Assembly: GCA_951406725.2 (NCBI GenBank)
Contig: OX597814.1
Location: 194,060,001-194,124,000, forward strand
Direction: 5' to 3'
DNA length: 64,000 bases
Source of the DNA: Octopus vulgaris
Taxonomy: Eukaryota
Shown: piece by piece, positions 1,263 to 64,000 of the stretch
Layout: each line of letters begins with the position of its first letter
Numbering within the stretch: position 1 is the first letter of the stretch
Made by a program: the position numbers and the translations under genes
Notes under the pieces: model-generated
The model's input: only the letters and a program-made list of their open reading frames with translations
What the model was told of the DNA's origin: nothing
Database searches by the model: none

Positions 1263-2610
1263 CTAAGCCATGCCATTATCAATAAATAATTGATTAATGA
1301 ATATAGATGAAACTCTATACGAGTTCGATATTAACAGAAGATGGGTAGAACACCGAACATTTTGAAGATGTTTTATTTCCTTGGTACTCTCAATAATTCT
1401 GAAAAATGCATGGACGTCACACAACTTCATTTTTGTTTCGAAGACGATAACGACACAGCTGGCATTAAGTTGAAATAAATTTACCTTTTCCACAGAACCA
1501 GCTGGGATTTGAACACTGCGCGTAAAACTTGAAAAAAAAAAAAAAAAGAAAAAAGACAATAACGGAACAGATTTTGGTACAAGGCCAGAAGTTTAGGGGA
1601 GGGATTAAGTCGATTACATCGACCTCAATGTTCGACTAGGACTTATTTTATGAACCCGAAAGGATGAAAGCAAAGTCGACTTCGGCGGAATTTGAACTCA
1701 GAACGTAAGGTGCCGCTAAGAATTTTGCCTGGCATGTTAAGAATACTTATTTCTTTACTACCCACAAGGGGCTAAACACAGAGAGGACAAACAAACGGAT
1801 TAAGTCGATTACATCGACCCCAGTGCGTAACTGGTACTTAATTTATCGACCCCGAAAGGATAAAAGGCACAGTCGACCTCGGCGGAATTTGAACTCAGAA
1901 CGTAAGAACAGATGTAGTGCTGCTAAATATTTTGTCTGGCGTGTTAAGGATACTGCTAGTTCGTCGCCACTCGTGATTAGGGTGGTGGAGCTGGTAGAGT
2001 CGTTGAAGCGTCGGAACAAGCATCGTGACATTTGTTGCGGCTCTTTACGATTGTAAAGTCGTGAGTTCGATATCCGGCGGCGCGTTGTGTTCTTTAGCAT
2101 GACACTTTATTCTGCAATGCTCCAGTCCAATCAGCTGATAAAAATGAGTTCTACCTGTATTTCTAAGGGTCAGCCTTGTCGCATTCTGTGTCACATTGAA
2201 TCTCCCCGAGGACTACGTTAAGGGTACACGTGCTTGTAGAGTGCTTAGTTATTTGCACGTTAATTTCACGAGCAGGCTGTTCCGTTGATCGGGTCAACCG
2301 GAACCCTCGTCGTCGTAACCGACGGAGTGTCAGTTTAATGTTTGTACTATTTGCAGAAACTTTCTGACAGGAATGGCGACAAGAACGCTTGTGATGCAAC
2401 TCTTGACCTGGCGCTAAACAACAATAACACTGCTAACAACGACTACAACCATTTAGTAAGACACTGAACCGTATGTGTCACTAGTAGCTTGCTTACGAAC
2501 CAAATGGTTCCGGGTTCAGTCCCACTGCATGGCATCTTGGGCAAGTGTCTTTTACTAAAACCTCGGGCCGACCTAAACTTTGCGAGTGGACTTTTTGGAC
2601 GGAAACTGAA

Positions 2611-6088: not shown

Positions 6089-6092
<4 letters not shown>

Positions 6093-6505
6093 AAAATTAA
6101 GAGGAATGACCACTAAAGTGGACACCTAATATGCTAAACATAGATGTGAAATTGCGATTACCACGAAGAATGTGTTCTCAAGAAAAACCTCACGAAAACG
6201 ACAAAATGTAAAAATGAGCAACACAGATGAAAATATACGAAATAAAAAACGATTACCTACGTACCAATGGTTTCACTTGTTAATGTCATTTTTACATTTT
6301 GGCGTTTTGCTGAGATTTTTCTTGAAAACACATTCTTCGTGGTAATGGCGATTTGATGTCTATGTTTAGCAATTAGGCTGTCCACTTTTAGTGGTCATTC
6401 CTCTTAATTTTGTATGTAACACAATTTTTAATCTTCGGATTTTTTAAATATGCTAAGCCATTGGTTTTAATTGATTAATATCAATTTCTACCCTTATTAT
6501 TTAAT
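6089..6505. repeat. Asymmetric inverted repeat in microsatellite (Penelope pLTR-like remnant)
   Basis: Arms about 6089-6217 and 6286-6414; 3' half of an HHR (GAAA CCA u UGG UA) on minus at the inner junction. Confidence 0.6.
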
Positions 6506-9927: not shown

Positions 9928-10250
9928 TTAATAATATCAGGGTAATAAAGATTTTAGAAATTTTCACTACCAGTGGCCTAGCGTATAGAGAAATTATATA
10001 TTATTCATATAAAATACAGTGTACATTTAAACACATAAAGAGGCTTCCATCATAGGAATCCCTTACGCTAGAAAGAACAACTAAAATAAGTCAGAAACCA
10101 TGGTCCAGGAAATAGATGGTAAATGCTTTTATTTTTCATTCCCTTCCAGAATTTTTCCCTAATTAGTTGTTTGGACTTTAGCTGTTCTTTCTAGAGTAAG
10201 GGATTCCTATGATGGTAACCTCTTAATGTGTTTAAATGTACACTGTATTT
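9922..10250. repeat. Asymmetric inverted repeat in (TA)n (Penelope pLTR-like remnant)
   Basis: Arms about 10011-10086 and 10177-10250; GAAACCATGGTC at about 10095. Confidence 0.6.
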
Positions 10251-10653
10251 TATATATATATATGCATGCATACATACATACATTCACTGGATATGGGATA
10301 CGTAACACGCTGCCTAAATACCAATCTTGAGAAATTTGGCTTCTCAAAACCAAAATAGTGAAAGCTAATTCAAAGACTATAGACCCAAGCCATCACTGGA
10401 AGTGTAAAAAAATCTGTAAAACTTTCCAGAAGTCTATCATATAAGTATATATGAGCGTGTCTAGATATGCAAGTGTATGCGTGAGAAAACATACATAAAA
10501 CAAAACATATAAATCTGCATATATACATACATACAAAAATACCCTGTTGTTATGTTGAAATTCCAATGAAGGAGACTTGGATCTAGGTTAACAACCAGCT
10601 CTTTATTGGCAAGAAATCTTGAAATCAAACTGAATAATGACATACATACATAT

Positions 10654-12595: not shown

Positions 12596-13199
12596 GTGTA
12601 GTGTAAACGTGTAGCGTAAACATTCAAGCATCGTCACTAATGTTCCAAATCCCACTACATTTCACATGAAATTTTGGTGGGGCTCCAAAGTGGCCTTGGT
12701 ATATAAGTCGAGCTACCTTTTCTTTTACTGTAAATTTTCCGAAAAATTCGACTTGTATTCCAGAAAATATTGTTTGAGGACAACTTGACAATATATTGTG
12801 AAAAAACAATTTGATATTTAAAGTTAAAGAATATAGAGTTTTATGAATATGCGCGCATGGTAAACATGTCTGCTAGTATCATATATAATTTAATTTATTT
12901 CAACAGACTGTATTTTAATTTATGAAATCAACAGCAAAAACTCTGTAACTGCCATTTCTACCATCATTAGTTATAAACAAAAGAGGGAGAGAGAGAGAGC
13001 ATAGTAGTTAATAAATAACGAAAGAATATGCATTACGTAATTACCCTCATTAGCTAATGAATGTGATTGTGTAATTAATGCTATTTTGTCATTCATTAAT
13101 TGATATTATGCTCTGTTCTCTCCTAACGTTTTACTTTAGCACTTAAGTATATTGAGTATATATACATATATATATATATAAATTCTATAATTATAAGCA

Positions 13200-13238
<39 letters not shown>

Positions 13239-16568: not shown

Positions 16569-18317
16569 TCAAGAGGAGGGGGCTGTGTTAAGTCCGTGTG
16601 GGGTGGTAGTTTGTAGGGTGAAGATGTAGCGTTGCTCCAAGTGGAGCCTGGAAAGTGGGCGACCATTGTGGGGGGCGAGACCAAACACTGAGATGTCATC
16701 TCGGGAATGGCCGGCCGAGCGGAAGTGGCGTGCGACGGGAGAAAAAGAGTGTAGGCGAACGTCCCTCAAGTGTTCAGTGAAACGGTCGGACAACCGGCGT
16801 CCCGTCTGACCTACATACAGCATCCCGCATAGGTTGCATTTAATGCAGTAAATAAGGCCAGACGAGGTGCACGTAAAAGAGTGCCTAATGCGTACAGTAT
16901 GCAGGTTGGAGCCGGTGACAGCGGTGGTGTTGGTGATGAAGGGGCAAGTGTTGCAGCGGGATCTAGAGCAAGGGAATGATCCGTGTGGGGCTGAGTGGGA
17001 AGGGGAGAGGGTGCTGTGGACCAGGAGGTCACGCAGATTGCGGGCTCGTTTGAAAGAGGACAGGGGTGGGTTAGGGAAAATGGGGCGGGTGGTGGGATCA
17101 AGCTGGAGGCGACGGAAGGCACGTAGTATCTTGCGACGAAGGGGTAGGGTAGAGGGGTGGAAAAGGAGGGGGAAGGGGGTGCGGTTGGGGGGTGGGCGGG
17201 GGGAAGGAGACAAGGCGGTAGTGCGGTCGATGCGACGGGCGCGGGTGAGGGCATCAGAGAGGAGTGTGGGTGGGTAACCTCGGAGTCTGAACATGCGGGC
17301 CAGGTATTGAGATTGGGTCTCGAAATCCTGGTCGCGGCTGCACAAACGTCGGAGGCGGAGGAACTGGGAGTAGGGGATGGCTCGTTTGGTGTGGAAGGGG
17401 TGGGAGGAAGAGAAGTTGAGATAGAGGTGGGAATCCGTAGGTTTAAAGAAGGCGGTGGTGGTGAGAGAGCTGGAGGGGTGATCGATGCGGAGAGAGATGT
17501 CAAGGAAGTTGACAGAGGTGTTGGAGATGGTGGAGGTGAATTGAAGAGAGGGGTGAAAGTTGGAAAGGAAAGAGATGAATTGGCCGAGAAGTTCCCGGGA
17601 AAGGGAGGTGGCACCTACACAGTCGTCGATATAGCGACCGTATAGTTCGGGGGTCGGCCCAGAGAACTGGGAGAACACTTGGGCCTCAATGTAGCCAAGA
17701 AAGAGATTGGCGAAATTGGGGCCCATCCTAGTTCCCATCGCGACCCCGGACACCTGTTGGTACGTTTCCCCGGCGAACGTGAAGCAATTGAGGGTGAGGA
17801 CGAGCTCAGCCAAACGGAGAAGGGTGGGGGTGCTGGGGGTCGGGTCGGGACGACGGTCGAGGAAGTGTTGGAGGGCTAGGAGACCGTCATTGTGGGGAAT
17901 CACTGTGTACAGGGATTTTACATCTAAGGTGAAGAGGAGGTGTGAGGGGCTGGAAGGGAAGGAAAAGGAATTGAAGAGACGGAGGGCGTGGTTGGTGTCG
18001 TGTATGTGGGATGGGAGGGCTGCGACTAAGGGGGACAGGATGCGGTCGAGGTATAGGGAGATGAGTTCAGTGGGGCAATTACAGGCAGAGACTATGGGAC
18101 GGCCAGGGTTAGAGGGTTTATGGATCTTGGGAAGGAAGTAGATGGTGGAGGTGCGGGGTGTGCGGACGATGAGGTTGGTGGCGGTGAGGGGGAGAGCGGA
18201 GGAGGAGATGAGGTCGTGGATGGTGGAGGACACTCGCTGTTGGTAGGAGGAGGTGGGATCGGAGGGGAGGAGGCGATAGAAGAGGGGATTTTGAAGCTGG
18301 TTGAGCGCTTCCTCCCT
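16569..18317 (-). CDS. Penelope-like reverse transcriptase + Cys linker + GIY-YIG endonuclease (N-terminally truncated)
   Basis: Motifs YFLPKIHK, GRPIVS, LDVKSLYT, GVAMGTRMGP, RYIDD, FLDI, CSRSRCNTC, GLIYCIKCNLCGMLYVGQT...RFTEH; frame stays open upstream of 18233 (EEALNQLQNPLFYRLLPSDPT). Confidence 0.93.
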   Translation of the reverse strand, partial: REEALNQLQNPLFYRLLPSDPTSSYQQRVSSTIHDLISSSALPLTATNLIVRTPRTSTIYFLPKIHKPSNPGRPIVSACNCPTELISLYLDRILSPLVAALPSHIHDTNHALRLFNSFSFPSSPSHLLFTLDVKSLYTVIPHNDGLLALQHFLDRRPDPTPSTPTLLRLAELVLTLNCFTFAGETYQQVSGVAMGTRMGPNFANLFLGYIEAQVFSQFSGPTPELYGRYIDDCVGATSLSRELLGQFISFLSNFHPSLQFTSTISNTSVNFLDISLRIDHPSSSLTTTAFFKPTDSHLYLNFSSSHPFHTKRAIPYSQFLRLRRLCSRDQDFETQSQYLARMFRLRGYPPTLLSDALTRARRIDRTTALSPSPRPPPNRTPFPLLFHPSTLPLRRKILRAFRRLQLDPTTRPIFPNPPLSSFKRARNLRDLLVHSTLSPSHSAPHGSFPCSRSRCNTCPFITNTTAVTGSNLHTVRIRHSFTCTSSGLIYCIKCNLCGMLYVGQTGRRLSDRFTEHLRDVRLHSFSPVARHFRSAGHSRDDISVFGLAPHNGRPLSRLHLEQRYIFTLQTTTPHGLNTAPSS

Positions 18318-18519
18318 AAGTAGGTGAATGAATTATCCTAGTATGGATAATTCGGTTAATCGATACCTGGGTAGCAAATTCACGTCAGAAAACACGGTTG
18401 AAGCTACATGCCCAGGGCAGAAACCCAGTGTTCTTGTGTGGAAATTTGTGTGTTTTTTTTATATGAATAAATGTAGGCAGTCATCAAAAAGTTTTTGTTC
18501 GTCTTGAGGCTGATAGAGG

Positions 18520-18618: not shown

Positions 18619-18669
18619 TTTTGTTAAAATTTTCGTTCGACTCCATTCTTTCATTTATTTATATATATA

Positions 18670-19055
18670 TAAATTCTATAATTATAAGCATAATTATCAT
18701 TAGGGTTCAGCAAAAATTACTTCATCACATACCGAAATTTAGAAATAGCAGTTAAGTACTATTCCACTACCATAAGATATCTCCCAGACAGTAATACTTT
18801 TCTCTTTACCTGTATGAGTTGAGAGTATTACTGTCTGGGAGATATCTTATGGTAGTGGAATAGTATTTAACTGCTATTTCTAAATTTCGGTATGTGGGGA
18901 AGTAAATTTTGCTAAACCCTAATTATAATTATGCTTATAATTATAGAATTTTTGTATAAGGTTCCCGAGAATGGTTCTTTTAACATACCGAACTACTTGG
19001 TAAAATTATTAATTATCAATTGATTATTTAATTTTACCCTTTGCTATTATTGATT
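18670..19055. repeat. Asymmetric inverted repeat in (TA)n
   Basis: About 130-bp arms around 18800-18822, with a right extension ending ttaccc...tatata. Confidence 0.65.
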
Positions 19056-20247: not shown

Positions 20248-20289
<42 letters not shown>

Positions 20290-21039
20290 CAAGGTATAAA
20301 TAGTAATCATTATATATTTTTTCCTTTATTGGAGTAAATTTGGCTTACATCTGTTTCCAGTAGTCACGATAGGTTTGTTACTGATAGGTTTCTCAATTCA
20401 TCTGCCCAATTGAGAAACGTTTCATATCAGTAACAAACCTATAATGACTACTGGAAACAGCTGTAAGCCGTATTTACCCCAACGAAAGGAAAACATGTAA
20501 TGACCATTATTTATACCTTTTCTTGTATGTTACTCTGTGGAAAAACCAGTTTGACAGGAGCGCAACCACGGATTTATAATATATAATTGTGATGAACTAT
20601 AACCTCGGACACTGCCATTAGAATTTCTGGAGTTCTTTACTAATGTAAACAATATTGTTAGCCTGGTGCGCCAAAAGAGAGCTTATGAAGTACTTTGCCC
20701 GTATTGATAATCCCTCAACAATAACTATATATATATATATATATAAACTTAGATATGTTTCGACCAAAGATTGGTCCAGGCCATGTCTAACTTAATAGCA
20801 CCGCCTGATTAATAGCACCACCTTAATATATATATATATATACTACTAATATAGGATGAAGCTTTTTTACAGAAAAAAAATTCATCAAAAAATGTGGCAG
20901 CATATTAAAATACCTTTAAGGTTAAAATTATAAACAACTTATAAACAAGGGTTAAAGAAAATTATTTAAATTAACGATTTAAAAGTCTGTTATCAGCATA
21001 TTGGCATAGAAATAATTTTCTTTAGCCCTTGTTTATAAG

Positions 21040-24922: not shown

Positions 24923-25231
24923 AAACGGTGAACTGGCAGATTCGTTAGCGCACTGAACAAAATACTTAGCGTCATTTCGTTCGTGATTACGTCCTGAGTT
25001 CCCTCGAGGTCGACTTTGTCTTTCATCCTTTCGGGATCGATAAAATAGTACCAGCTACGAGTAACACCTCCACCAAAATTTCAAGCCTTGTGCCTATCGT
25101 AGAAAGGACTATAACCGAAATAACATTATTACAAAAGATATTAACCTCTAATACATTTGACAACATCACTACGTTAGCAATACGTTAAAAATAATACTAG
25201 AAAAAAATAATACTAGATAAACATTAAAATA

Positions 25232-25947
25232 TTTCGTTTTTGCATTTGGTTTGCGAGATTCTTTATGTAAATTCGTGTATTGAAGCACATTCTGTTGTGT
25301 CTGGCGGGGAATTATTCTCTTTTTGTGCCTTATAATTTAACATAGGAGTGGCTTTTTGTGCCTTATAATTTAACGCAGGAGTGGCTGTGTGGTAAGTAGC
25401 TTGCTTACCAACCACATGATGCCGGGTTCAGTCCCACTGCGTGGCACCTTGGGCAAGTGTCTTCTACTATAGCCTCGTGCCTACCAAAGCCTTGTGAGTG
25501 GATTTGGTAGACGGTAACTGAAAGAAGCCTGTCGTATATATGTATGTGTGTATGTGCGTGTGTGTGTTTGTCCCCCCCCCCCCCCAACATCGCTTGACAA
25601 CCGATGCTGGTGTGTTTACGTCTCCGTAACTTAGCGGCTTGGCAAAAGAGACCGATAGAATAAGTACTGGGCCTACAAAGAATAAGTCCTGGGGTCGATT
25701 TGCTCGACTATAAAGGTGGTGCTCCAGCATGGCCACAGTCAAATGACTGAAACAAGTAAAAGAGTAGAGTGTAAAAGACACTCACCGGTAAAATTTCCAC
25801 TCATTTCCTTCTTTATTTGCAAGGCGCAACGAAAATTTTAGAAAAATAAAGAAGGGAATAAGTGGAAATTTTACCGGTGAGTGTGTTAAATTATAAGGTG
25901 TGTGTGTGTTAAATTATAGGGTGAATGACTCTCCCCAGACACAACAG
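25232..25947. mobile_element. Asymmetric fold-back element (U3-A8 HHR family), interrupted by a family B SINE
   Basis: 12-bp TSD AACATTAAAATA at 25220-25231 and 25948-25959; homologous to 33975-34307. Confidence 0.75.
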
Positions 25948-26156
25948 AACATTAAAATAGTTTATCTGGTGTTGTTGAGAAGAGATTGTCTGAAGTTGCA
26001 GATATTTCCCCCTTTTTTTTTTACTCTTACTTTCACTGGTTTCAGCCAGAGGCTGCGGCCGTGCTGGAACACTTCCCGGATCTCTCTACGGAATTGTTTC
26101 TAGTGAAGTAGTGATCAGGACAGAACTGCTCTTCTTTGTGCTTCCGGCCACGATGT

Positions 26157-28009: not shown

Positions 28010-28200
28010 TTAAATTTCAAACAATTTAAGAATATATCTCCTGCAGTTTACATCGTTAAAATGTTCCTCTAACCTCACTATTAGGAGGCTGTTGGTCTCA
28101 CCGATATATTCACTACCACGACAACTGCAATAGATGGAATACACATATTTCTTCCGATGGAGGGATTGTTGAGGAAAGTCGCTGTGGAGAGATAGAAAAC
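28010..28200 (-). pseudogene. Decayed GIY-YIG endonuclease fragment (Penelope-type)
   Basis: YVYSIYCSCRGSEYIGETNSLLIVRLEEH. Confidence 0.7.
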
Positions 28201-28520
28201 TCAGACATGGTTGATTAGATGTAAATGTCAAAGGACAGTCATCAACTATTGTGGAACAAAGTCGAGGTAACAGACTGGAACAAAACCCTGGAAGGCGACT
28301 AAAAGAATCGGTGAATACACTGGGCTTTGGTAACGTCTTTAACAGACCCAGCAAAGAGGGAAACGCCACACGGAAGCCATTAATCAAGAAAGGGAAAACT
28401 TGAAAACAACAAACATAAAAAAGTTAAATCTAAAACTCCTAATATCCATAATTTTAATGTACAGGGTGTCTACAAAGTCTGGGTGCATGGAGTAAATAAA
28501 ATTATAACATAAACAATTAA

Positions 28521-28811
28521 CAATTGCGGCGTGGAAGGTGTTTGTAAGCCATTTAAGAAACACACAAAAGCCGTTCGATTCACTTTAACATTTAAGTTTA
28601 ATTTGTCAAATGCACGGATTTTTGTCAGTGAACAGGCCGCGGTCTTAAAGCGACGAAAATATTTTGACAAATTAAACTTAAATGTTGAAGTGAATCGAAC
28701 GGCTTTTGTGTGTTTCTTAAATGGCTTACAAACACCTTCCACGCTGCAATTGTTTTCGTTTCAGCACACGATCTCAGATCAAATCACTTGCTATGCAAGT
28801 ACATCTCCGTA
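28521..28811 (+). mobile_element. Asymmetric fold-back element carrying the G3-C8 HHR, nested in a mariner
   Basis: About 90-bp inverted arms, about 59-nt one-sided extension, 12-bp TSD ATAAACAATTAA at 28509-28520 and 28812-28823. Confidence 0.8.
28621..28671 (+). ncRNA. Type I hammerhead variant with G3-C8 core (GUGAACA)
   Basis: UUUGUCA-GUGAACA-G-GCCGC ggucuuaaa GCGAC-GAAA-AUAU-UU^-UGACAAA; 7-bp stem I, palindromic stem III. Confidence 0.7.
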
Positions 28812-30070: not shown

Positions 30071-31741
30071 CATGTTCGTAAGGGAGTTTATAGAAGAAAT
30101 AATACCAGTAGACACCAATGACATCGCTGAGCTGAAGATAATAGAGTCTCATAGTAAGACTTTATCTATTGAAAACCTGCTGGAATTCGCACAGCAACGC
30201 ATCTAGAATGAACCGGGAGACCTTATTGCAGAGCCAACAACGGCATAAATAATTCTAACTACTAGATTCCTCGGAAAAAAGCATCACGAAGAAGTCAAAA
30301 ATCATGAACCAGTTTACTGAGAATGACTCTGATTCGGAGCGCAGCTGCCAGGTGAAGTGTAGTGTTCTTCGTGATAGAAAACTCAAGAAAACGCAGACAT
30401 CAGATGCTTACCTCGAAAATCAGCCAATGAGTGAGGAAGACCCCCAACCTTAAACCTCATCCCAGATATAGTCTGTTCTGGTTTATTTCTCACATCTGCT
30501 TTTCAACTGAATTAATGGTGATTAGATCTGTGTTTTCATGATTAGTGAATTTTTAATCTGCCAGGCGACTATTCGCTATATCAGTGAATATTTTATTCAC
30601 TTTTTCCTATATCGGAAACGACGAATACTCTTCAGAGCATGTGACTGCCTGTGAGTATGCACCATTAAAGATACCCAAAAAGGTTGAAAAATATATCTGG
30701 CAATTTCGCTGATAACTGCAGGGATGAATTTTCGTATGTCCGATATCTATTGAGTTTTTAACATAGCAAGTCTAAATGACATATCATATCAGGACAAATA
30801 CGGCAGTGACTTGTCTGACAACAGTGTGTGTGCATTAAGTATGATACATAGAAGGCTGTCTTTAACTATTTTTCATAATCATCTATCAAAAAACTCATTA
30901 TTCTTTTATTTGTTTCAGTCATTTGACTGCGGCTATGCTGGAGCACCGACTTTAGTCGAACAAATCGACCCCAGGACTTATTTTTAGTAAGCCTAGTACT
31001 TATGCTATCTTCCACTTTTGCCGAACCGCCGCTAAGTTACGGGGGCACAAACATACCAACATCGGTTGTCAAGCGATGGAGTGGGGACAAACACAGACAC
31101 ACAAACATATACATACGACGGGTTTCTTTCAGTTTCCGTCTACTAAATTCACTTACAAGGCTTTGGTCGGCCCGAGGCTATAGGAAAACACTTGCTCGAG
31201 GTGCCACGCAGAATTAACTTAAACTTTTGTAACCTTTCGTTTTTGGATTTGGTTTGCAAGATTCTTTATATGAGTTCGTGTGTTGAAGCATATTCTGTAG
31301 TGTCTGGGGAGAGTCATTTTCTTTTTGTGCCTTATTATTTAACACACTCACCGGTAAAATTTCCACTTTTTTCTTATTTTTATTGTCCTAAAAGTTTCGT
31401 TGCGTCTTGCAACCTTTTTAATAGTTTTGCCTCTGTCCGTTATTTACACTGCGTTCCCTTTTGTTTGTTTGTGCGCATGTGTGTGGGTCAGTGTGTGTAT
31501 GTGTGCCTATACAGGCATGCATGTACGTATGTATGTGTGTGTGTTTTTGCATGTGTATGTATGCATATGTATGTATATATGTGTGTGTATGCATCTGTAT
31601 ATATGTATGTATATGTGTGCATCTGTATGTACGTATCCTGTATATTTATGTGCTTGCCTGTCCGTGTTTGTGTATTTTCTATGTATGTGTGTGTGATCAT
31701 GTGTTTGTATATATATGCGCCTCTGTCTCCTTGTGTGTGCA

Positions 31742-33229: not shown

Positions 33230-33974
33230 GTTATTTTTATTAAACCCTTCCAAATTCCAGGTTATTTTCAAAATTGGATGAAATACAGAGGCAATATATT
33301 TCATTAGCAAAATCTCAAGTACAGTTTGTATTTAGAAAAGGAATTTTTTATCGAAGGGGGATAATCTGCTCAAATCGATTATCCCCCTTGCTTTATCAAC
33401 ACTGAACACACGTTAGTTCTTCCAGAGATCGAAAGCGCGATCGAGTTTCTAACCCAACCATTTCCTTTACTTACCCATCTGATTTCTTCAGAAGCTGCAT
33501 AAAAGCTACAACATAATAAAATATTGCACTGTACAGAAAAAAATATCAATAATGTGTTTCTTTTATATCTGAAAAATGTAAATTATTTTCTGACTAGCAG
33601 AATCGTTAGTGACGGACACAATGCTTTATGGAATGGATTTAGTTACGGTCCTCTACGAACTAAGTTCAAATCTCGGCGAGGGCCATTTTGTCTTTCTTCT
33701 TTTCGGAGGTCATTTAAAATATTTAAACATTTGTGCATTACTGCATATACTTTATACGCACTTTTGACAAGTTGTGGTGCACCTGAGCACTGTATACAAT
33801 AATTTCATTATTATTATTATTATTATAATCGTCAAGTACTGGGACGAGTCAATATTTCGATACAGCATAGGCCTGAAGCCATGTGGTTGGAAAGAAGTTT
33901 CTTAACCATGATGTTTAATAACAAAAGTCTGTTCATAGCGTATCGCCTCTCATTTATAGTGAGCCATAATGTAC

Positions 33975-34307
33975 TTCGTTTTTGGATTTGGTTTGCAAGA
34001 TTCTTTATGTGAGTTCGTGTGTTGAAGCATATTCTGTTGTGTTTGGGGAGAGTCATTTTCTTTTTGTGTCTTATTATTTAACACACTCACTGGTAAAATT
34101 CCCACTTTTTTTCTTATTTTTTATTGCCCGAAAATTTTCGTTGCGTCTTGCAACCTTTTCAATAGCTTTGAGTCAAAACTATTGAAAAGGTTGCAAAACG
34201 CAACGAAAATTTTAGGAAAATGAAAATAAGAAATAAGTGGAAATTTTATCAGTGAGTGTGTTAAATAATAGGGCACAAAAAGAAAATGACTCTCCCCAGA
34301 CACAACA
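33975..34307. mobile_element. Asymmetric fold-back element (U3-A8 HHR family)
   Basis: About 135-bp inverted arms centred near 34172, about 55-nt left extension; a partial copy lies at 31235-31430. Confidence 0.8.
34179..34215 (+). ncRNA. Minimal type I hammerhead variant with U3-A8 core (mirror copy on minus strand at 34129-34165)
   Basis: CUA-UUGAAAA-G-GUUGC aaaac GCAAC-GAAA-AU-UU^-UAG. Confidence 0.6.
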
Positions 34308-35489
34308 TAAATGTATTGCTATACTTAAAATATTGGGAAGTACTTGTTTAAGCACTGCAAATATGGAAGCACTCCGTCGGTTACGACGATGAGGGTTCTG
34401 GTTGATCCGAATCAACGGAACAGCCTGCTCTGTGAAATTAACATGTAAGTGGCTGAGCACTCCACAGACACGTGTACCCTTAACGTAGTTCTCGGGGATA
34501 TTCAGCGTGACACAGAGAGTGACAAGGCCGGCCCTTTGAAATATAGGTACAACAGAAACAGGAAGTAAGAGTGAGAGAAAGTTGTGGTGAAAGAGTACAG
34601 CAGGGATCACCACCATCCCCTGCCAGAGCCTCGTGGAGCTTTAGGTGTTTTCGCTCAATAAACACTCACAACGTCCGGTCTGAGAATCGAAACCGCGATC
34701 CTACAACCGCGAGTCCGCTGCCCTAACCACTGGGCCATTGTGCCTCCACTACTGCAAATATTCATGGAGGAAAGAAAACATAAAACAAATAAAAATGATA
34801 AACAAAATGGTGTTTAGGTAATTTATTTTATTTTAAAATGATAAAAAGAAACATTTCTAGAATGTTCTGCGAAATACAGCTGTACTGTTGCTCAACTCAA
34901 TAAAAAGAAGACAGCTATTTGGTTGTTAAAATCCCACAAATTTATGCATGATTGTGCCACATATTAACAGTCTATTTGCAAAAGATAGTTACAAGTCAAA
35001 ATAACAGCTTTCTTTAATTTTAAACACCCATTTAGAGCATTTTACTAGTGTGAGCACACACACACACACACACATATATGCATACACATGCCTGTATAAA
35101 CACACATAACAAACGAATCCAGTTAACATGATTGAATGTTTGGAACAATATATATACTTTCAATGTTTGGAAAGAAATATTAAAATGTTACCCTCCGTTC
35201 TATTTTGTTTTCAGACCTTCTGGTACAACATGACAAAATTCTATCAGTAAATGCATTCTATTGAATTTTTGTCTTTTCCTCCAATTCAAACAAAAGAAAA
35301 ATCCACATCTGTAATAAGTCCCACTCAAGCAAGCATGAAAAATGGATAAAAGAAATCCAGTTAACAAAATCCATACTTATAGAGCTACAGAAATCTAACC
35401 TTACTGACAAGACCCCTGCATGAAAAATCATAACTAGAACATGTGATAACCACTGAAGAATTCTCCCTTTTCAAATTTGTATGTATGTA

Positions 35490-36233: not shown

Positions 36234-36698
36234 CAGTTCTATATTTAAGAGATGTGGAATTATGTACATTATTTACATTTGATGGATATTTGTTCTCATC
36301 TTGTTTGTTATTAACACATTTCGGCTGATATACCCTCCAGCCTTCATTAGGTGTCTTAGGGAAATTTCAAACAGGGGTTCTCATTCATAAAGGTATTTTT
36401 CAATATTATTACTATTATTATTATTCAGGTCACTGCCTGGAATCAAACTCGGAATCTTGGGGTTAGTAGCCTGTGCTCTTAACCACTATGACCACAAGCA
36501 TATGGCTACTAACCCCAAGATTCCGAGTTTGATTCCAGGCAGTGACCTGAATAATAATAACATCGAAAAATACCTTAGGAAAGAGAACCCAGGTTCGAAA
36601 TTTCCCCAAGACACCTGATGAAGGCTGGAGGGTGTATCAGCCGAAATGTTGTGTTAACAACAAAGATGAGGACAAATATCTGTCAAATGTAAATTATG
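36234..36698. mobile_element. Fold-back tRNA-headed HHR retroelement, copy 1 (both arms nearly full)
   Basis: Head-to-head inverted arms centred near 36495; 14-bp TSD TATTATCAATAACA at 36220-36233 and 36699-36712. Confidence 0.85.
36610..36655 (+). ncRNA. Minimal type I hammerhead in the tRNA-headed element
   Basis: GACAC-CUGAUGA-A-GGCUG gaggguguau CAGCC-GAAA-UG-UU^-GUGUU (stem III is CG in the 63502 copy). Confidence 0.75.
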
Positions 36699-38328
36699 TA
36701 TTATCAATAACATTCAATATGATGAGTCCTTTTTTCTTTAATTCTTTCTTTGTACTTGTACATTATATAATCCTTAAGCTTGGTGTCAGTAGCCATCCCC
36801 TAGTTTATAAAAAAATACAAAAATCCTTGTATAGAACTGTGCACTTCACAGTCCCAGTGATGTGGTGTTTGGCTGTTATGCGCATGCTCACATGTCCAAG
36901 ATAGGAAGCTACATGCTAGGGAGAGAGATCATTGTGGTTCGTGCAGTGCCGACCCTGGTGTGCTGGTGAAAGGTAGTGTTTCTTTTTGACTCCATATGTG
37001 TTGTGCTTAAAAACGTGTTGATATTCTTGAATGTAATAAAGTGTAGAATTAGATTATTATCCTGCACCAAGATACAGTGTTGCTGCCAGGATTTGAAAAA
37101 TAGGGCATATTTTCCCCCTTATTTTGTAATTTAGTGGGGATTTTTGAAAAACACGAGTGAATTTGTGCTGGTGTTCAGTAAACAAATTAAACACATTACA
37201 CAGCAGTGGCTAAAACGTGAACCAATCAAGTTTATGTATAAATTTTCTTTTTATATCTTTGTTTCCTTTTACACAACATTAAAACAATGGCTAAAAATTT
37301 TCTGAAGCCGCAACCCCACCAATTTTATCTATGAGCCACCACAGTTGCCTAAGTATATACAGACATTAACTCAGTGAACCTAACTGGACCCAAATGACTA
37401 CACAGAGGTAACTAATATATGTGTACAAGTGTGTGCATACGTGTGTGTGTGTGTGCGCGCGTGTGTGTGTATACATACATATATACGTATGTATATACAC
37501 AACCTTATCTTGACATCATTCAAAGATTGCAAGCTAGCATCACCATGACACAAGTGATGCTGTTCATTTTCAATCTTCAATGGAAAACATGTCTGATCAT
37601 AGGAGAATATTACCTATTTCTTTATTACCCACAAGGGGCTAAACATAGAGGGGACAAACAAGGACAGACAAAGGTATTAAGTCAATTACATCGACCCCAG
37701 TGCGTAACTGGTACTTATTTAATCAACCCCGAAAGGATGAAAGGCAAAGTCGACCCCGGCGGAATTTGAACTCAGAACATAGCAGACGAAATACTGCTAA
37801 GCATTTCGCCCGACGTGCTAATGATTCTGCCAGCTCGCCACCCTAATAGAAGAATATTACCATGCTTTGAAACAGGGTGTTGGCAACAGGAACAGGATGC
37901 AGTCATAGAAAATCTGCCACAGCAAATTCCGTCTGGTTAACAAAAGCATGGAAAAAATGGAGCTTAAATGATGATGAAATATATTGAAACAAAAAAAAAA
38001 AAAAAAAAACAGGGACGGAGATTAACAAAATCAAAGAGAAAACAGATAATCTGGAAGGATGTTACTTTTTCTCTTTCAGAATCATTAACAATGGATTTGG
38101 TATTTTTGAAAAATTAGCATGGATTCTGAAAAAAATAGTGAGATCAAATAGTCGAAGATTATGGCATCATAGATGTAACTGACTCTCAGAGAGAAAAAAA
38201 CCGCAGTTGGAATAATGGCTAAAGACAAGGACAGCACAGTTTTAAGTGACTAGAGATAATGACCTAGAACTATCATTAAAATAATGATCAAAGATCCCAG
38301 CAGGCATGGGTGAGTGGTTAAGTCTCTA

Positions 38329-45151: not shown

Positions 45152-45504
45152 TTAAAAAATAAACTGTTTTATTTTTATCTTTGCACTCCCAACAAAAAAA
45201 AAATTTTTCAAGTTAATTGATCTCAGATTAAAATTCCATCACAACTAATCCAGTGCTAGTTCCAAGTCACATGATTGAAATTCAATTCCTTTTGACTAAC
45301 ATAAAAATATAGGCTCCCGTCACTTTAAAGCTACATTTCTGAAGAAATTAAATGAAATGACCTACTCACAGAACAGAACATATCTGAAATTGCAGACGAC
45401 AACCAATATGTATGAATTATATTCATAAAGTACATTATATACACTGACTACTTGGAATATACATTGAACTATATATAGATAGATACACATTGCACTACCT
45501 ATGG

Positions 45505-45536
<32 letters not shown>

Positions 45537-46075
45537 CCATAGGTAGTGCAATGTGTATCTATCTATATATAGTCCAATGTATATTCATCTTCTTCACCAA
45601 GTAGTGCAGTGTATATAATGTACTTTATGAATATAATTCATACATATTGGTTGTATGGTTGTATATATATATATATATATATATTAGAGAAAAACCACTA
45701 TTATGTAATTCAAACAATGATAGCCGTAAATCATACCATATAGAAAAAAATTAAATATATGATAAAACATTTACCTATTTTTTCTATATGGTATATATTT
45801 TATCTTTTCTATATGGTATGATTTACGTCTATATTGTTTGAATTACATAATAGTGTATTTTATATATATTTATATATATATATTATATATCTATGTTGTG
45901 AAATTTGATTTAATACTGAATTGAATTTTTCCCTGTAAGTTTGGAGTTATACTCCCTAATATTATTATCATTTTATATAGATATATATATATATATATAT
46001 ATTTATTCATACATATACACATACATACTGCACCATCTACAGTAATGTATGTATAAAAACTCTCTCTTTCTCCCC

Positions 46076-46518: not shown

Positions 46519-47159
46519 GTATGTATGTATGTGTGTGTGCGCGTGCATGTTTGTCTTACCAATATTGCTTGACAACCAATGCTGGTGTGTTTACATCCCC
46601 GTAACATTTGGCTATTTTCTATTAGACCTTTATTGTCATCTCCCCTTTATTTATAGTGGGTGGTCCCACTTTATGCCTCGTCATTTGCGACACGCATAGG
46701 ACACAGGCATAATTCTCTAAGCCAGCACAATCCCACTGTCCCATAAAATATTAAAATAGTAATTTTTAAAAAGTTAAAAAATATCTAAAAACATTCTATA
46801 GAACGGGTATCTTTTGTCAATCCGGTTTTCTTTTTGCTCGATGAAAGGCGGCACTCCAGCATGGCCACAGTCAAATGACTGAAACAAATAATAGAATATA
46901 TATATATATAATTTCAAATTAATAATAAAAGGGTAAAATTAATTAATAAAATTAATTAATCAATCAAACAATCAATCAATAATTTTACCAAGTAGATCAG
47001 TATGTTAAAATAACCTTTATAGGTAAAATTATACAAATATTCTATAATTATAAACATAATCAAGGGTCAGCTAGTGAAGCAATTAGCTGACCCCTAATTA
47101 TAATTATAGAATACTTGTATAGAAATTATAGAACCTTTGCATATATATATATTTGTGTG

Positions 47160-51872: not shown

Positions 51873-52206
51873 CTGAAAAGGTGTAAGGAGAGACACACAA
51901 ATAAGAAAGAAGAAAGCAAAGGACCACTGATGCAGTCACAGGAGTGTGACGAAAGAACTCTGGCCGAAATAAGATTAAGATTCATGTAAAAAGTAAATAA
52001 CACTGAAGCAAAGTAATACCAAATATATAGTGCGTGTGTTTTTATTGGATAAACTGGCAAAATGACCATTCCTAAATACAACACTATATATATAATATTT
52101 ATATATTATTGATTTTTCATCATTACCATCGTTTAACATCCGTTTTCCATGCTAGCATGGGTTGGACAGTTCAACCGGGGTCTGGGAAGCCAGGAGGCTG
52201 CACCAG

Positions 52207-52685
52207 TCGAGATATATCACATCCACGCTTGAGTCGTTCAACAGCTGTTTTAACACCCAGTCGTAGTGTTGCAGGAGCTGTGTCAGACAGCTTCTACCTG
52301 GATGAAATCCATGCTGGGTGTCAGTCAGCAAGTAATTTTCTTCTAGGAACGTGATTAGTTTCTTGTGGACTATTCGTTCCATGACTTTACTGATGTGTGA
52401 GGTCAGAGAGATAGGCCTATAATTTTTAGCATCTGCTCTGCTTCCGCCCTTAATGATAGGGCTTATTATCCCTTCCTTCAGTTTTTCTGGGAGCTTACCA
52501 CTTGCAAGGAAGCTCTGGAAGAGAAGCTGCAGTGGTTTTGTAAGAGCTCACTTGCATGATTTGAGTAGGACTGCTGGAAATCCATCCATGCCAGCCGCTG
52601 AGTTTGTGTCAACCTCATCTATGGCCAGTATTACATTTTCTTCAATGTTTATGTACTCAATTTTTTTAACCTCTTTGGTTTTAGG
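52207..52685 (-). mobile_element. CR1-type LINE RT fragment
   Basis: [13 protein letters not shown]...RPISLTSHISKVMERIV...QHGF..GRSCLTQL...VDVIYLD. Confidence 0.85.
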
Positions 52686-61453: not shown

Positions 61454-61803
61454 TTACATTATTTACATTCGATGGATATTTGTCCTCATCTTGTTTGTTG
61501 TTAACATAGTGTTTCGGCTGATATACCCTTCAGCCTTCATCAGGTGTCTTGGGGAAATTTCGAACCTGGGTTTCCATTCCTAAGGTATTTTTCGATGTTG
61601 TTATTATTATTGTTCAGGTCACTGCTTGGAATCGAACTCGGAATCTTGGGGTTAGTAGTCCATGCTCTTAACCACTACGCCATATGCCCGTGGGCATATG
61701 GCATAATGGTTAATGTTGTGTTCACAACAAATAAGATGAGGATAAATATCCATCGAATGTATATAATGTACATAATTCCTCATCTCTTAAATATAGAACT
61801 GTA
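61454..61803 (-). mobile_element. Fold-back tRNA-headed HHR retroelement, copy 2 (B3GLCT intron)
   Basis: 13-bp TSD CTATCCAGTTTAT at 61441-61453 and 61804-61816; one full arm plus a short inverted arm with tail. Confidence 0.85.
61503..61548 (-). ncRNA. Minimal type I hammerhead in the tRNA-headed element (stem III mutated)
   Basis: GACAC-CUGAUGA-A-GGCUG...CAGCC-GAAA-CACU-AUGUU. Confidence 0.6.
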
Positions 61804-61968
61804 CTATCCAGTTTATGCCTGCATAGAGAGGAGAGGAGGATTGGGGAGGGAAAGGAGAGGAGAAGGAAGGAGGATGACAATGACAACAATAACAAGATGA
61901 AGGCAGTGGCAGGCAGCAAATACATTGACGTACAATGAAAAATAGAGAGGAGAGCAGCAAAAACTTAC

Positions 61969-63242: not shown

Positions 63243-63594
63243 ATACAGTTCTATATTTAAGAGAGGTGGAATTATGTACATCATTTACATTATTTACTTT
63301 CGACAGATATTTGTCCTCATCTTGTTTGTTAACATAACATATGCCCACAGGCATATGGCGTAGTGGTTAAGAGCGTGGGCTACTAACCCCAAGATTCCGA
63401 GCTTGATTCCAAGCACTGACCTGAAAAATCATAATAATACTAATAATAATAAGATCGAAAAATACCTTGGGAATGAGAACCCAGGTTTGAAATTTCCCCA
63501 AAACACCTGAAGAATGCTGGAGGTTATATCAGCTGAAACGTTATGTTAACAACAAACAAGATGAGGACAAATATCCGTCGAATGTAAATAATGT
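63243..63594 (+). mobile_element. Fold-back tRNA-headed HHR retroelement, copy 3 (inserted in a family E SINE)
   Basis: 13-bp TSD ACCAACCACTTTA at 63230-63242 and 63595-63607; A box TGGCGTAGTGG at 63356. Confidence 0.85.
63502..63547 (+). ncRNA. Minimal type I hammerhead in the tRNA-headed element
   Basis: AACAC-CUGAAGA-au-GCUG...CAGC-u-GAAA-CG-UU^-AUGUU. Confidence 0.6.
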
Positions 63595-64000
63595 ACCAAC
63601 CACTTTACAGTGTGGACTGGGTGCTTTTAAGTGGCACCTGCACTGACAGGGTCACTAAGTACTTGCAAGACAAAAAATAAAAGAAAAAAAAAACTAAATT
63701 TTGCAAAAGAATATATATCAGTATATCTGTCTTGCATTTCTTATTTCTTTATTGCCCACAAGGGGCTAAACATAGAGGGGACAAACAAGGACAAACAAAG
63801 GGATTAAGTTGATTACAACGACCCCAGTGCGTAACTGGTACTTATTTAATCGACCCCGAAAAGATGAAAGGCAAAGTCGACCTCGGCGGAATTTGAACTC
63901 AGAACGTAAAGACAGATGAAATACCTATTTCTTTTACTACCCACAAGGGGCTAAACACAGAGAGGACAAACAAAGACAGACAAACGGATTAAGTCGATTA

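What the first reader, a model, noticed from the sequence alone, without database searches (positions are those of the whole stretch)
33975..34307. Fold-back family with back-to-back ultra-minimal U3-A8 hammerheads
Seen: the palindrome centre (atagctttgagtcaaaactat) is immediately followed on both strands by CUA-UUGAAAA-G-GUUGC/GCAAC-GAAA-AUUU^UAG (the minus-arm stem I has one substitution). There is a 55-nt extension on one side. Sister copies lie at 25232-25947 (12-bp TSD) and 31235-31430. Together with the C-G and G-C cores, this gives three of the four Watson-Crick options at 3-8 in one window, which is covariation support for function (inference).
Basis: partly seen in the sequence, partly recalled or inferred. 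Interest (0 to 1): 0.75.

Follow-up and report, generated by a model that had tools for sequence, protein, structure and literature searches.

The report
Penelope retrotransposon ends with minimal hammerhead
This is a decaying, folded-back end piece of a Penelope-type jumping gene in what is probably octopus DNA, carrying a small self-cutting RNA motif of a kind already described in such elements, so it is real but mostly ordinary.

Summary
33975-34307 is a head-to-head inverted repeat. The plus arm has an intact minimal type-I hammerhead (U3-A8 core, inserted G, 5-bp stem II, palindromic AAUU, U17, 3-bp stem I); the minus arm has a broken stem I. No shuffled window gave such a match (0 of 300).

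It is the terminal repeat (pLTR) plus tail of a Penelope-like retrotransposon. An ORF starts after the hammerhead and runs to the tail end. Its peptide is 48% identical to that of a second fold-back with a G3-C8 core (28519-28811). That second peptide begins an Octopus sinensis gene model that continues as a PLE-like N-terminus.

The U3-A8 core, opposite-strand hammerhead pairs, inverted pLTRs, tail and TSD are all published for PLEs (PMC4209133, PMC3846280). Back-to-back placement is an insertion by-product: the hairpin costs about 40 kcal/mol to open, and copies decay neutrally. Compensatory changes between the two homologous families do support ancestral function, but rest on two lineages.

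Possible extras: a natural G3-C8 core, and inverted arms that start near the cleavage site in 3 of 6 insertions.

The parts
33975..34171 (-). Long arm of family A: pLTR plus tail of a Penelope-like element
34173..34307 (+). Short arm: inverted pLTR without tail, head-to-head with the long arm
34162..34182 (.). Palindromic junction, axis at 34172; 18 of 21 positions self-complementary
34179..34215 (+). Intact minimal type-I hammerhead; U3 at 34182, A8 at 34187, inserted G at 34189, predicted cleavage after 34212
34129..34165 (-). Second hammerhead copy, U3 at 34162, stem I disrupted
33976..34056 (-). First 27 codons of the PLE ORF, running from inside the pLTR to the tail end (the plus-arm ATG is at 34286)
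33975..34034 (-). One-sided tail, about 60 nt
33965..33973 (+). Probable decayed TSD, left copy; partner at 34306-34315 differs by one indel (weak)
25232..25947 (.). Family A sister fold-back with exact 12-bp TSD (25220-25231, 25948-25959); SINE inserted at about 25375-25770; hammerhead incomplete
31235..31429 (-). Family A single arm with tail; same 5' start within 2 nt; core decayed (U3 at 31421)
28519..28811 (.). Family C: homologous PLE fold-back with 12-bp TSD (28509, 28812), 56-nt tail, G3-C8 hammerhead at 28621-28671 (+), ORF start 28721-28810 (+)
36265..36700 (.). Family B fold-back (C3-G8 hammerhead at 36615 +); comparison only. Further copies at 61455-61806 and about 63245-63595

Best explanation
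The feature is a 5'-truncated insertion of an endonuclease-containing Penelope-like retrotransposon, reduced to two terminal repeats joined head to head. One arm carries the extra tail, as PLE insertions typically do.

Shown here: the anatomy, the hammerhead match, an ORF start inside the repeat that ends at the tail end, and homology of that ORF start to a second family whose frame continues as a PLE-like N-terminus.

Inferred from published PLE work: the PLE protein nicked AT-rich DNA and primed reverse transcription at one of two internal RNA sites, giving the short end and the tail end. A fold-back or template switch at the small palindrome then produced the inverted arm. In the active ancestor the hammerhead lay just upstream of the ORF start and cut the precursor RNA slowly, as a dimer of two same-sense copies paired through AAUU and probably with help from the element's protein. 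The two copies here cannot serve each other and are now decaying neutrally.
For: The ORF start has 27 open codons ending at the tail end in both copies that have the whole start; the 25-kb copy keeps the last 23 codons behind a one-base insertion.

The A and C peptides score 55, reached by 0 of 20000 shuffles, and C is the best non-family-A hit in six frames of the window. They are 48% identical, with identity 16/19/8 of 25 by codon position and 7 of 12 conserved residues on synonymous codons. Both end at the same codon.

The C peptide is 29/30 identical to the start of O. sinensis LOC115227545. Residues 32-158 of that model match a profile of 55 full-length RT+GIY-YIG relatives at 13.9 bits; the best of 500 shuffles and the reversed sequence reached 8.4.

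Exact 12-bp TSDs flank 2 of 5 insertions tested. Published PLE anatomy matches: inverted pLTR, junction palindromes, tail, ORF start within pLTR and tail, 8-10 bp TSD (PMC3846280). The published minimal hammerhead consensus matches, including the same UUGAAAA core (PMC4209133). Two internal RT start sites and a protein-assisted hammerhead are shown for another PLE (PMC11167929).
Against: No full-length RT-endonuclease ORF of family A or C was found. The single-peptide search found nothing, the profile search gave 4 short proteins at E 1e-4 to 7e-4, and the O. sinensis model came at database E 0.077 from a profile that already contained the C peptide. The link of family A to a PLE protein therefore takes two steps, and the last step is a 14-bit match.

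The tail (56-60 nt) is longer than the 30-40 bp in print. The TSD of the 34-kb copy is imperfect. Stem I is only 3 bp, and the double-hammerhead fold evaluates at -5.4 kcal/mol against -15.6 for an alternative dimer (nearest-neighbour energies leave out core contacts). No cleavage was tested.
Confidence: 0.88

Rival explanations
1. The back-to-back pair is a functional unit, for example a non-autonomous RNA element cut on both polarities like viroid-type replicons.
For: Both arms start at the same point and both keep the core.
Against: A transcript across both arms forms a duplex that costs 39.6 kcal/mol to open, and the hammerhead pairs have probability 0. The minus stem I is broken. Both arms keep a hammerhead region in only 2 of 6 fold-backs, the 34-kb and 36-kb ones. 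The arms differ by 12 substitutions. Opposite-strand pairs are known by-products in PLEs.
Confidence: 0.04
2. It is a MITE of a DNA transposon, and the hammerhead match is chance.
For: The window holds other fold-backs with no hammerhead match (6090-6414, 10007-10255).
Against: The motif was not reached in 300 shuffles. The element has a one-sided tail, a 12-bp TSD, variable junctions, a single-arm copy and a codon-conserved ORF start.
Confidence: 0.03
3. It is a PLE end, but the U3-A8 motif no longer cleaved even in the active element. It was kept as a protein-binding or priming structure, or as a recent relic.
For: Weak 3-bp stem I, U17 and an unfavourable dimer energy. In another PLE, hammerhead mutants did not affect insertion in vitro and no reads began at the cut site. 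Minimal hammerheads cleave poorly in vitro.
Against: All catalytic positions are kept between families A and C while the DNA around them gives no blastn match. The 3-8 pair changed on both sides, which is the pattern known to rescue catalysis.
Confidence: 0.25

Closest known systems
Minimal hammerheads of metazoan Penelope-like elements, especially S. mansoni Cercyon family 4 (Cervera and De la Pena 2014, PMC4209133)
   Same: Type I, no real stem III, palindromic 15.2-16.2, one nucleotide between 9 and 10.1, G10.1-C11.1, 3-bp stem I, U17, the same UUGAAAA core, and dual motifs on opposite strands.
   Different: Inserted base is G, stem I is AU-richer, the two motifs are only about 20 nt apart, and the host is probably octopus (no cephalopod among the 56 rows of their Fig. 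S3). A sister family here has G3-C8, which is in none of those 56 rows (2 are U3-A8, 1 is U3-G8).
Inverted-pLTR Penelope insertions of Adineta vaga (Arkhipova 2013, PMC3846280) and the general PLE scheme (Craig 2021, PMC8557442)
   Same: Head-to-head pLTRs, palindrome at the junction, one-sided tail, first codons of the ORF inside pLTR and tail, TSD.
   Different: Tail 56-60 nt against 30-40; TSD 12 bp against 8-10; no ORF body left between the arms.
Poseidon element of Anolis (Frangieh 2024, PMC11167929)
   Same: Hammerhead at the ORF start and two fixed end points defining a tail.
   Different: There the ORF starts at stem II; here it starts 57-76 nt after the cut site. There the core is C3-G8.
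Non-LTR retrozymes (PMC7229834; bioRxiv 10.64898/2026.07.22.740005)
   Same: Short PLE-related repeats with type-I hammerheads.
   Different: Retrozymes are direct tandem repeats, in the 2020 paper with canonical hammerheads. This element is inverted, dispersed and minimal.

Membership tests
Minimal type-I hammerhead (PLE type) | Core N3-U-G-A-N-N8-A and G-A-A-A with 3-8 paired | tested here: met
   34182+ and 34162-; lost in the 31-kb and 25-kb copies
Minimal type-I hammerhead (PLE type) | One nucleotide between 9 and 10.1; stem II closed by G10.1-C11.1 | tested here: met
   Inserted G and 5-bp stem; pair probability 0.99 in a single-arm transcript
Minimal type-I hammerhead (PLE type) | Palindromic 15.1-16.1 followed by H17 | tested here: met
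   AAUU then U
Minimal type-I hammerhead (PLE type) | Stem I of 2-6 bp | tested here: met
   3 bp on the plus arm (pair probability 0.17); disrupted on the minus arm
Minimal type-I hammerhead (PLE type) | Self-cleavage as a dimer | not testable with these tools
   Only folding energies were computed
Canonical hammerhead (Rfam models) | Match to an Rfam hammerhead model | tested here: not met
   No hammerhead family among 135 matches at E up to 1
Penelope-like element | pLTRs, direct or inverted, with hammerhead | tested here: met
Penelope-like element | One-sided tail with recurrent end points | tested here: met
   About 60 nt; same tail end in 3 of 3 tailed arms and short ends within a few nt in 2 of 2 short arms
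Penelope-like element | ORF start inside pLTR and tail | tested here: met
Penelope-like element | Target-site duplication | tested here: met
   Exact 12 bp at the 25-kb sister and at family C; one-indel candidate at 34 kb; none at 31 kb
Penelope-like element | Continuous RT plus GIY-YIG ORF of this family | tested here: inconclusive
   Not found for family A. The family C frame continues as a PLE-like N-terminus in an O. sinensis model. The RT+GIY-YIG ORF at 16569-18332 was not linked to family A
Penelope-like element | Clade (Penelope/Poseidon, Neptune, Nematis, Hydra) from an RT tree | not testable with these tools
   No RT sequence of this family in hand
Non-LTR retrozyme | Direct tandem units each with a hammerhead | tested here: not met
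   All family A matches in the window are inverted arms or a single arm

The most novel reading that the evidence does not exclude
Octopus PLE lineages show in their insertions that the minimal hammerhead acts during retrotransposition. The shorter arm begins at -2, -3 and -6 nt from the predicted cut in 3 of 6 hammerhead fold-backs (a fourth at about +9), as expected if a cleaved RNA end or the palindromic stem III sets the fold-back junction. Homologous lineages have also swapped the catalytic 3-8 pair (U-A against a natural G-C), and a tRNA-headed SINE has captured such an end. This would make the open question of what PLE hammerheads do in vivo testable from genome sequence alone.
Probability: 0.2. 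Interest if true: 0.6.

Novelty: new member of a known kind. Interest (0 to 1): 0.27.

Why it matters
As it stands, it adds an octopus example to a known class: PLE ends with minimal hammerheads, including the already published U3-A8 variant.

The useful part is the pair of homologous families. The protein frame anchors their homology, and the hammerhead core and tail boundaries are kept while the DNA is no longer alignable. That argues for selection on the ribozyme in active elements, whose role is still unresolved: in one PLE, cleavage was dispensable in vitro (PMC11167929). If junctions cluster at the cut site genome-wide, that would be in-genome evidence that cleavage happens during transposition.

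Tried and rejected
Rfam scan of the window: no hammerhead model among 135 matches. ARAGORN: 0 tRNAs, so family B's tRNA-like head rests on A/B-box motifs read by eye.

Searches for the autonomous partner: the single peptide shared no three 5-residue words with any protein of 75-2000 aa. The all-library profile search gave 4 short proteins whose similarity covers only the 24-27 residue motif; they have no Pfam match and their source organisms remain unknown. The 8-sequence profile gave 1 hit among 1230 candidates. Alignment A2 used a wrong frame for family C and was discarded. The MAFFT alignment of six hammerheads shifted the core by one column and was not used for pair counts; pairs were read.

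No fourth option (A3-U8) passed the descriptor; loose hits had stem II of 1 bp and were rejected. Other fold-backs (6090-6414, 10007-10255, 18664-18958, 20282-20528, 45399-45654) gave no hammerhead match. A formal covariation test was not run, because three lineages give no power; a rough chance figure for the 3-8 pattern is 0.01-0.06.

Unchecked: no animal genome collection was available, so copy number and consensus rest on this window. The viral and metagenome collections were not searched, and the bacterial genome collection was not used as it does not bear on this. Lunse et al. 2017 and Arkhipova et al. 2017 were not read, so a natural G3-C8 core may already be in print there.

Full report
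Observation. The region 33975-34307 is a head-to-head inverted repeat with its axis at 34172. The arms share 122 matches, 12 substitutions and 3 gap columns and fold at -188 kcal/mol, z -26. The left arm runs about 60 nt further than the right. On the plus arm, 34179-34215 is a complete minimal type-I hammerhead: 3-bp stem I, core UUGAAAA (U3, A8), one inserted G, 5-bp stem II closed by G-C, GAA, the palindrome AAUU and U17. The minus arm has the same core with stem I broken. The strict descriptor found this one site against 0 hits in 300 shuffled windows. The loosest version, with no 3-8 requirement, gave 6 rows at 4 loci, all Watson-Crick at 3-8, against a shuffle mean of 0.1. The descriptor was shaped after seeing the motif, so these figures are somewhat favourable. 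Rfam has no matching hammerhead model.

Sister copies. The 25232-25947 copy has an exact 12-bp TSD, a SINE insertion and only the 3' half of the hammerhead. The 31235-31429 copy is a single arm that starts within 2 nt of the same 5' point and has two core substitutions. One of five family arms therefore keeps an intact motif.

What it is. An ATG 76 nt after the predicted cut opens a 27-codon frame that ends at the tail end. Family C has the same anatomy: inverted arms, a 56-nt tail, a 12-bp TSD and a 30-codon frame starting 57 nt after its cut. The two families give no blastn match to each other, yet their peptides align with score 55 (0 of 20000 shuffles; best non-self hit in six frames) and 48% identity. 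Identity by codon position is 16, 19 and 8 of 25, and 7 of 12 conserved residues use synonymous codons. Both frames end at the same codon.

A profile of these peptides found four short library proteins with the same motif. An enlarged profile found one longer protein among 1230 candidates, O. sinensis LOC115227545, at E 0.077. Its first 30 residues are 29/30 identical to family C. Residues 32-158 match a profile built from the N-termini of 55 full-length relatives of the window's RT+GIY-YIG ORF at 13.9 bits, against at most 8.4 for 500 shuffles and the reversed sequence. The rest of that model matches methyltransferase families; I read it as a chimeric gene prediction. So the peptides are PLE ORF starts, the repeats are pLTR plus tail, and the host is probably an Octopus species (inference; the SINE family is recalled and was not tested). 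No continuous RT-endonuclease ORF of family A was found.

How it works. Published PLE insertions have an inverted pLTR, palindromes at the junction, a one-sided tail, the first codons of the ORF in pLTR and tail, and a TSD (PMC3846280: passages and Discussion; PMC8557442: passages). In the Anolis element, reverse transcription starts at two internal RNA sites that define the tail, the hammerhead cuts only with protein present, and cutting is not needed for insertion in vitro (PMC11167929: parts 1-2 of 4). I infer the same origin here. The back-to-back geometry is a by-product: forcing the hammerhead fold in a transcript of both arms costs 39.6 kcal/mol and its pairs have probability 0, whereas in a single-arm transcript stem II forms at 0.99 and stem I at 0.17. 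A same-sense dimer through AAUU evaluates at -5.4 kcal/mol against -15.6 for an alternative dimer, so naked RNA should cleave weakly at best.

Covariation. Between the homologous families A and C all catalytic positions are kept, with four both-sided pair changes: 3-8, one in stem II and two in stem I. The stem III palindrome also lengthens from 4 to 6 nt, and one stem II pair in C is a mismatch (read). This supports selection in the active ancestors, but on two lineages. Adding family B gives three of three Watson-Crick, with a rough chance of 0.01-0.06, and B is not shown to be homologous. Within families the core is not spared (A: 2 of 45 against 18 of 479; B: 9 of 60 against 54 of 776), as expected for dead insertions.

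What is known. Cervera and De la Pena 2014 (PMC4209133: parts 1-2 of 4 of the text and parts 1-2 of 3 of the supplement) define this motif in metazoan PLEs. They report about 1,300 U3-A8 hits in S. mansoni, dual motifs on opposite strands 100-700 bp apart, and low dimer activity. Their 56-row alignment holds the same UUGAAAA core with a 3-bp stem I and U17, and has no G3-C8 row and no cephalopod. Natural U3-A8 was noted in 2011 (PMC3088659: passages). C3G/G8C rescue is known from mutants (passages of PMC8495972; PMC3884650 passages). Penelope elements are catalogued in O. vulgaris, with 0 occurrences of hammerhead or ribozyme in the main text (PMC13282606: passages).

Searches for a natural G3-C8 core, for octopus hammerheads, for PLE-type SINEs with hammerheads and for junctions at the cut site showed no such report in their listings. 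The library lacks most subscription papers. Lunse et al. 2017 (title seen in reference lists only) and Arkhipova et al. 2017 (reference list only) were not read and could hold these points. Also seen as passages only: PMC6765202, PMC7229834, PMC6155905, PMC10085705; bioRxiv 10.64898/2026.07.22.740005 part 1 of 5 and passages (supplements not seen).

The boldest reading. Across six hammerhead fold-backs in the window, the shorter arm starts at -2 (C), -3 and -6 (B), about +9 (25 kb), -40 (34 kb) and -165 (B) relative to the predicted cut. Three of six within 6 nt has a binomial chance of 0.01-0.04 depending on the arm length assumed. The test is post hoc, and microhomology in stems I and III could explain it without cleavage. 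If it held genome-wide it would bear on the open question of what PLE hammerheads do.

Verdict. A real feature and a new member of a known kind; interest 0.27.

Noticed in passing
window 28519-28811: Homologous PLE fold-back with a natural G3-C8 hammerhead core, 7-bp stem I and 6-nt palindromic stem III; arms differ at 2 of 92 positions; the inverted arm starts 2 nt before the predicted cut.
   Followed up: yes
window 36265-36700, 61455-61806, 63245-63595: Family B has a tRNA-like head (A- and B-box motifs read by eye; ARAGORN found none), a C3-G8 minimal hammerhead near its 3' end, and inverted arms with a tail-like extension. It looks like a Pol III SINE mobilised by a PLE.
   Followed up: partly
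window 16569-18332 (-): 587-codon open RT plus GIY-YIG frame of a 5'-truncated PLE, GC-rich, ending in poly(T) beside microsatellites; 598 homologues at E up to 1e-20. No hammerhead match next to it.
   Followed up: partly
window 28010-28423 (-): GIY-YIG endonuclease fragment about 90 bp from the family C insertion, outside its TSD.
   Followed up: partly
P0005 (O. sinensis LOC115227545): Gene model joins about 190 residues of a PLE-like N-terminus to a methyltransferase segment; probably a prediction artefact, though exonisation is not excluded.
   Followed up: partly
window 34081-34086 (-) and 34253-34258 (+): A GTGAGT splice-donor-like motif lies between the hammerhead and the ATG in all family A arms that cover it; PLEs are known to carry introns near the pLTR.
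   Followed up: no
window 6090-6414 and 10007-10255: Fold-backs bounded by TA without a hammerhead match; they look like Tc1/mariner-type MITEs (recalled resemblance).
   Followed up: no
window 18664-18958, related ends at 13173-13207 and 47000-47121: Another fold-back family inserted at (TA)n, 94% arm identity, no hammerhead match.
   Followed up: no
window 2343-2415 (-): Sub-threshold Rfam match to the HDV-like CPEB3 ribozyme model (29.3 bits against a cut-off of 35, E 0.001).
   Followed up: no
window 52152-52547 (-): Fragment of a LINE-type reverse transcriptase (Pfam RVT_1, E 1e-7).
   Followed up: no
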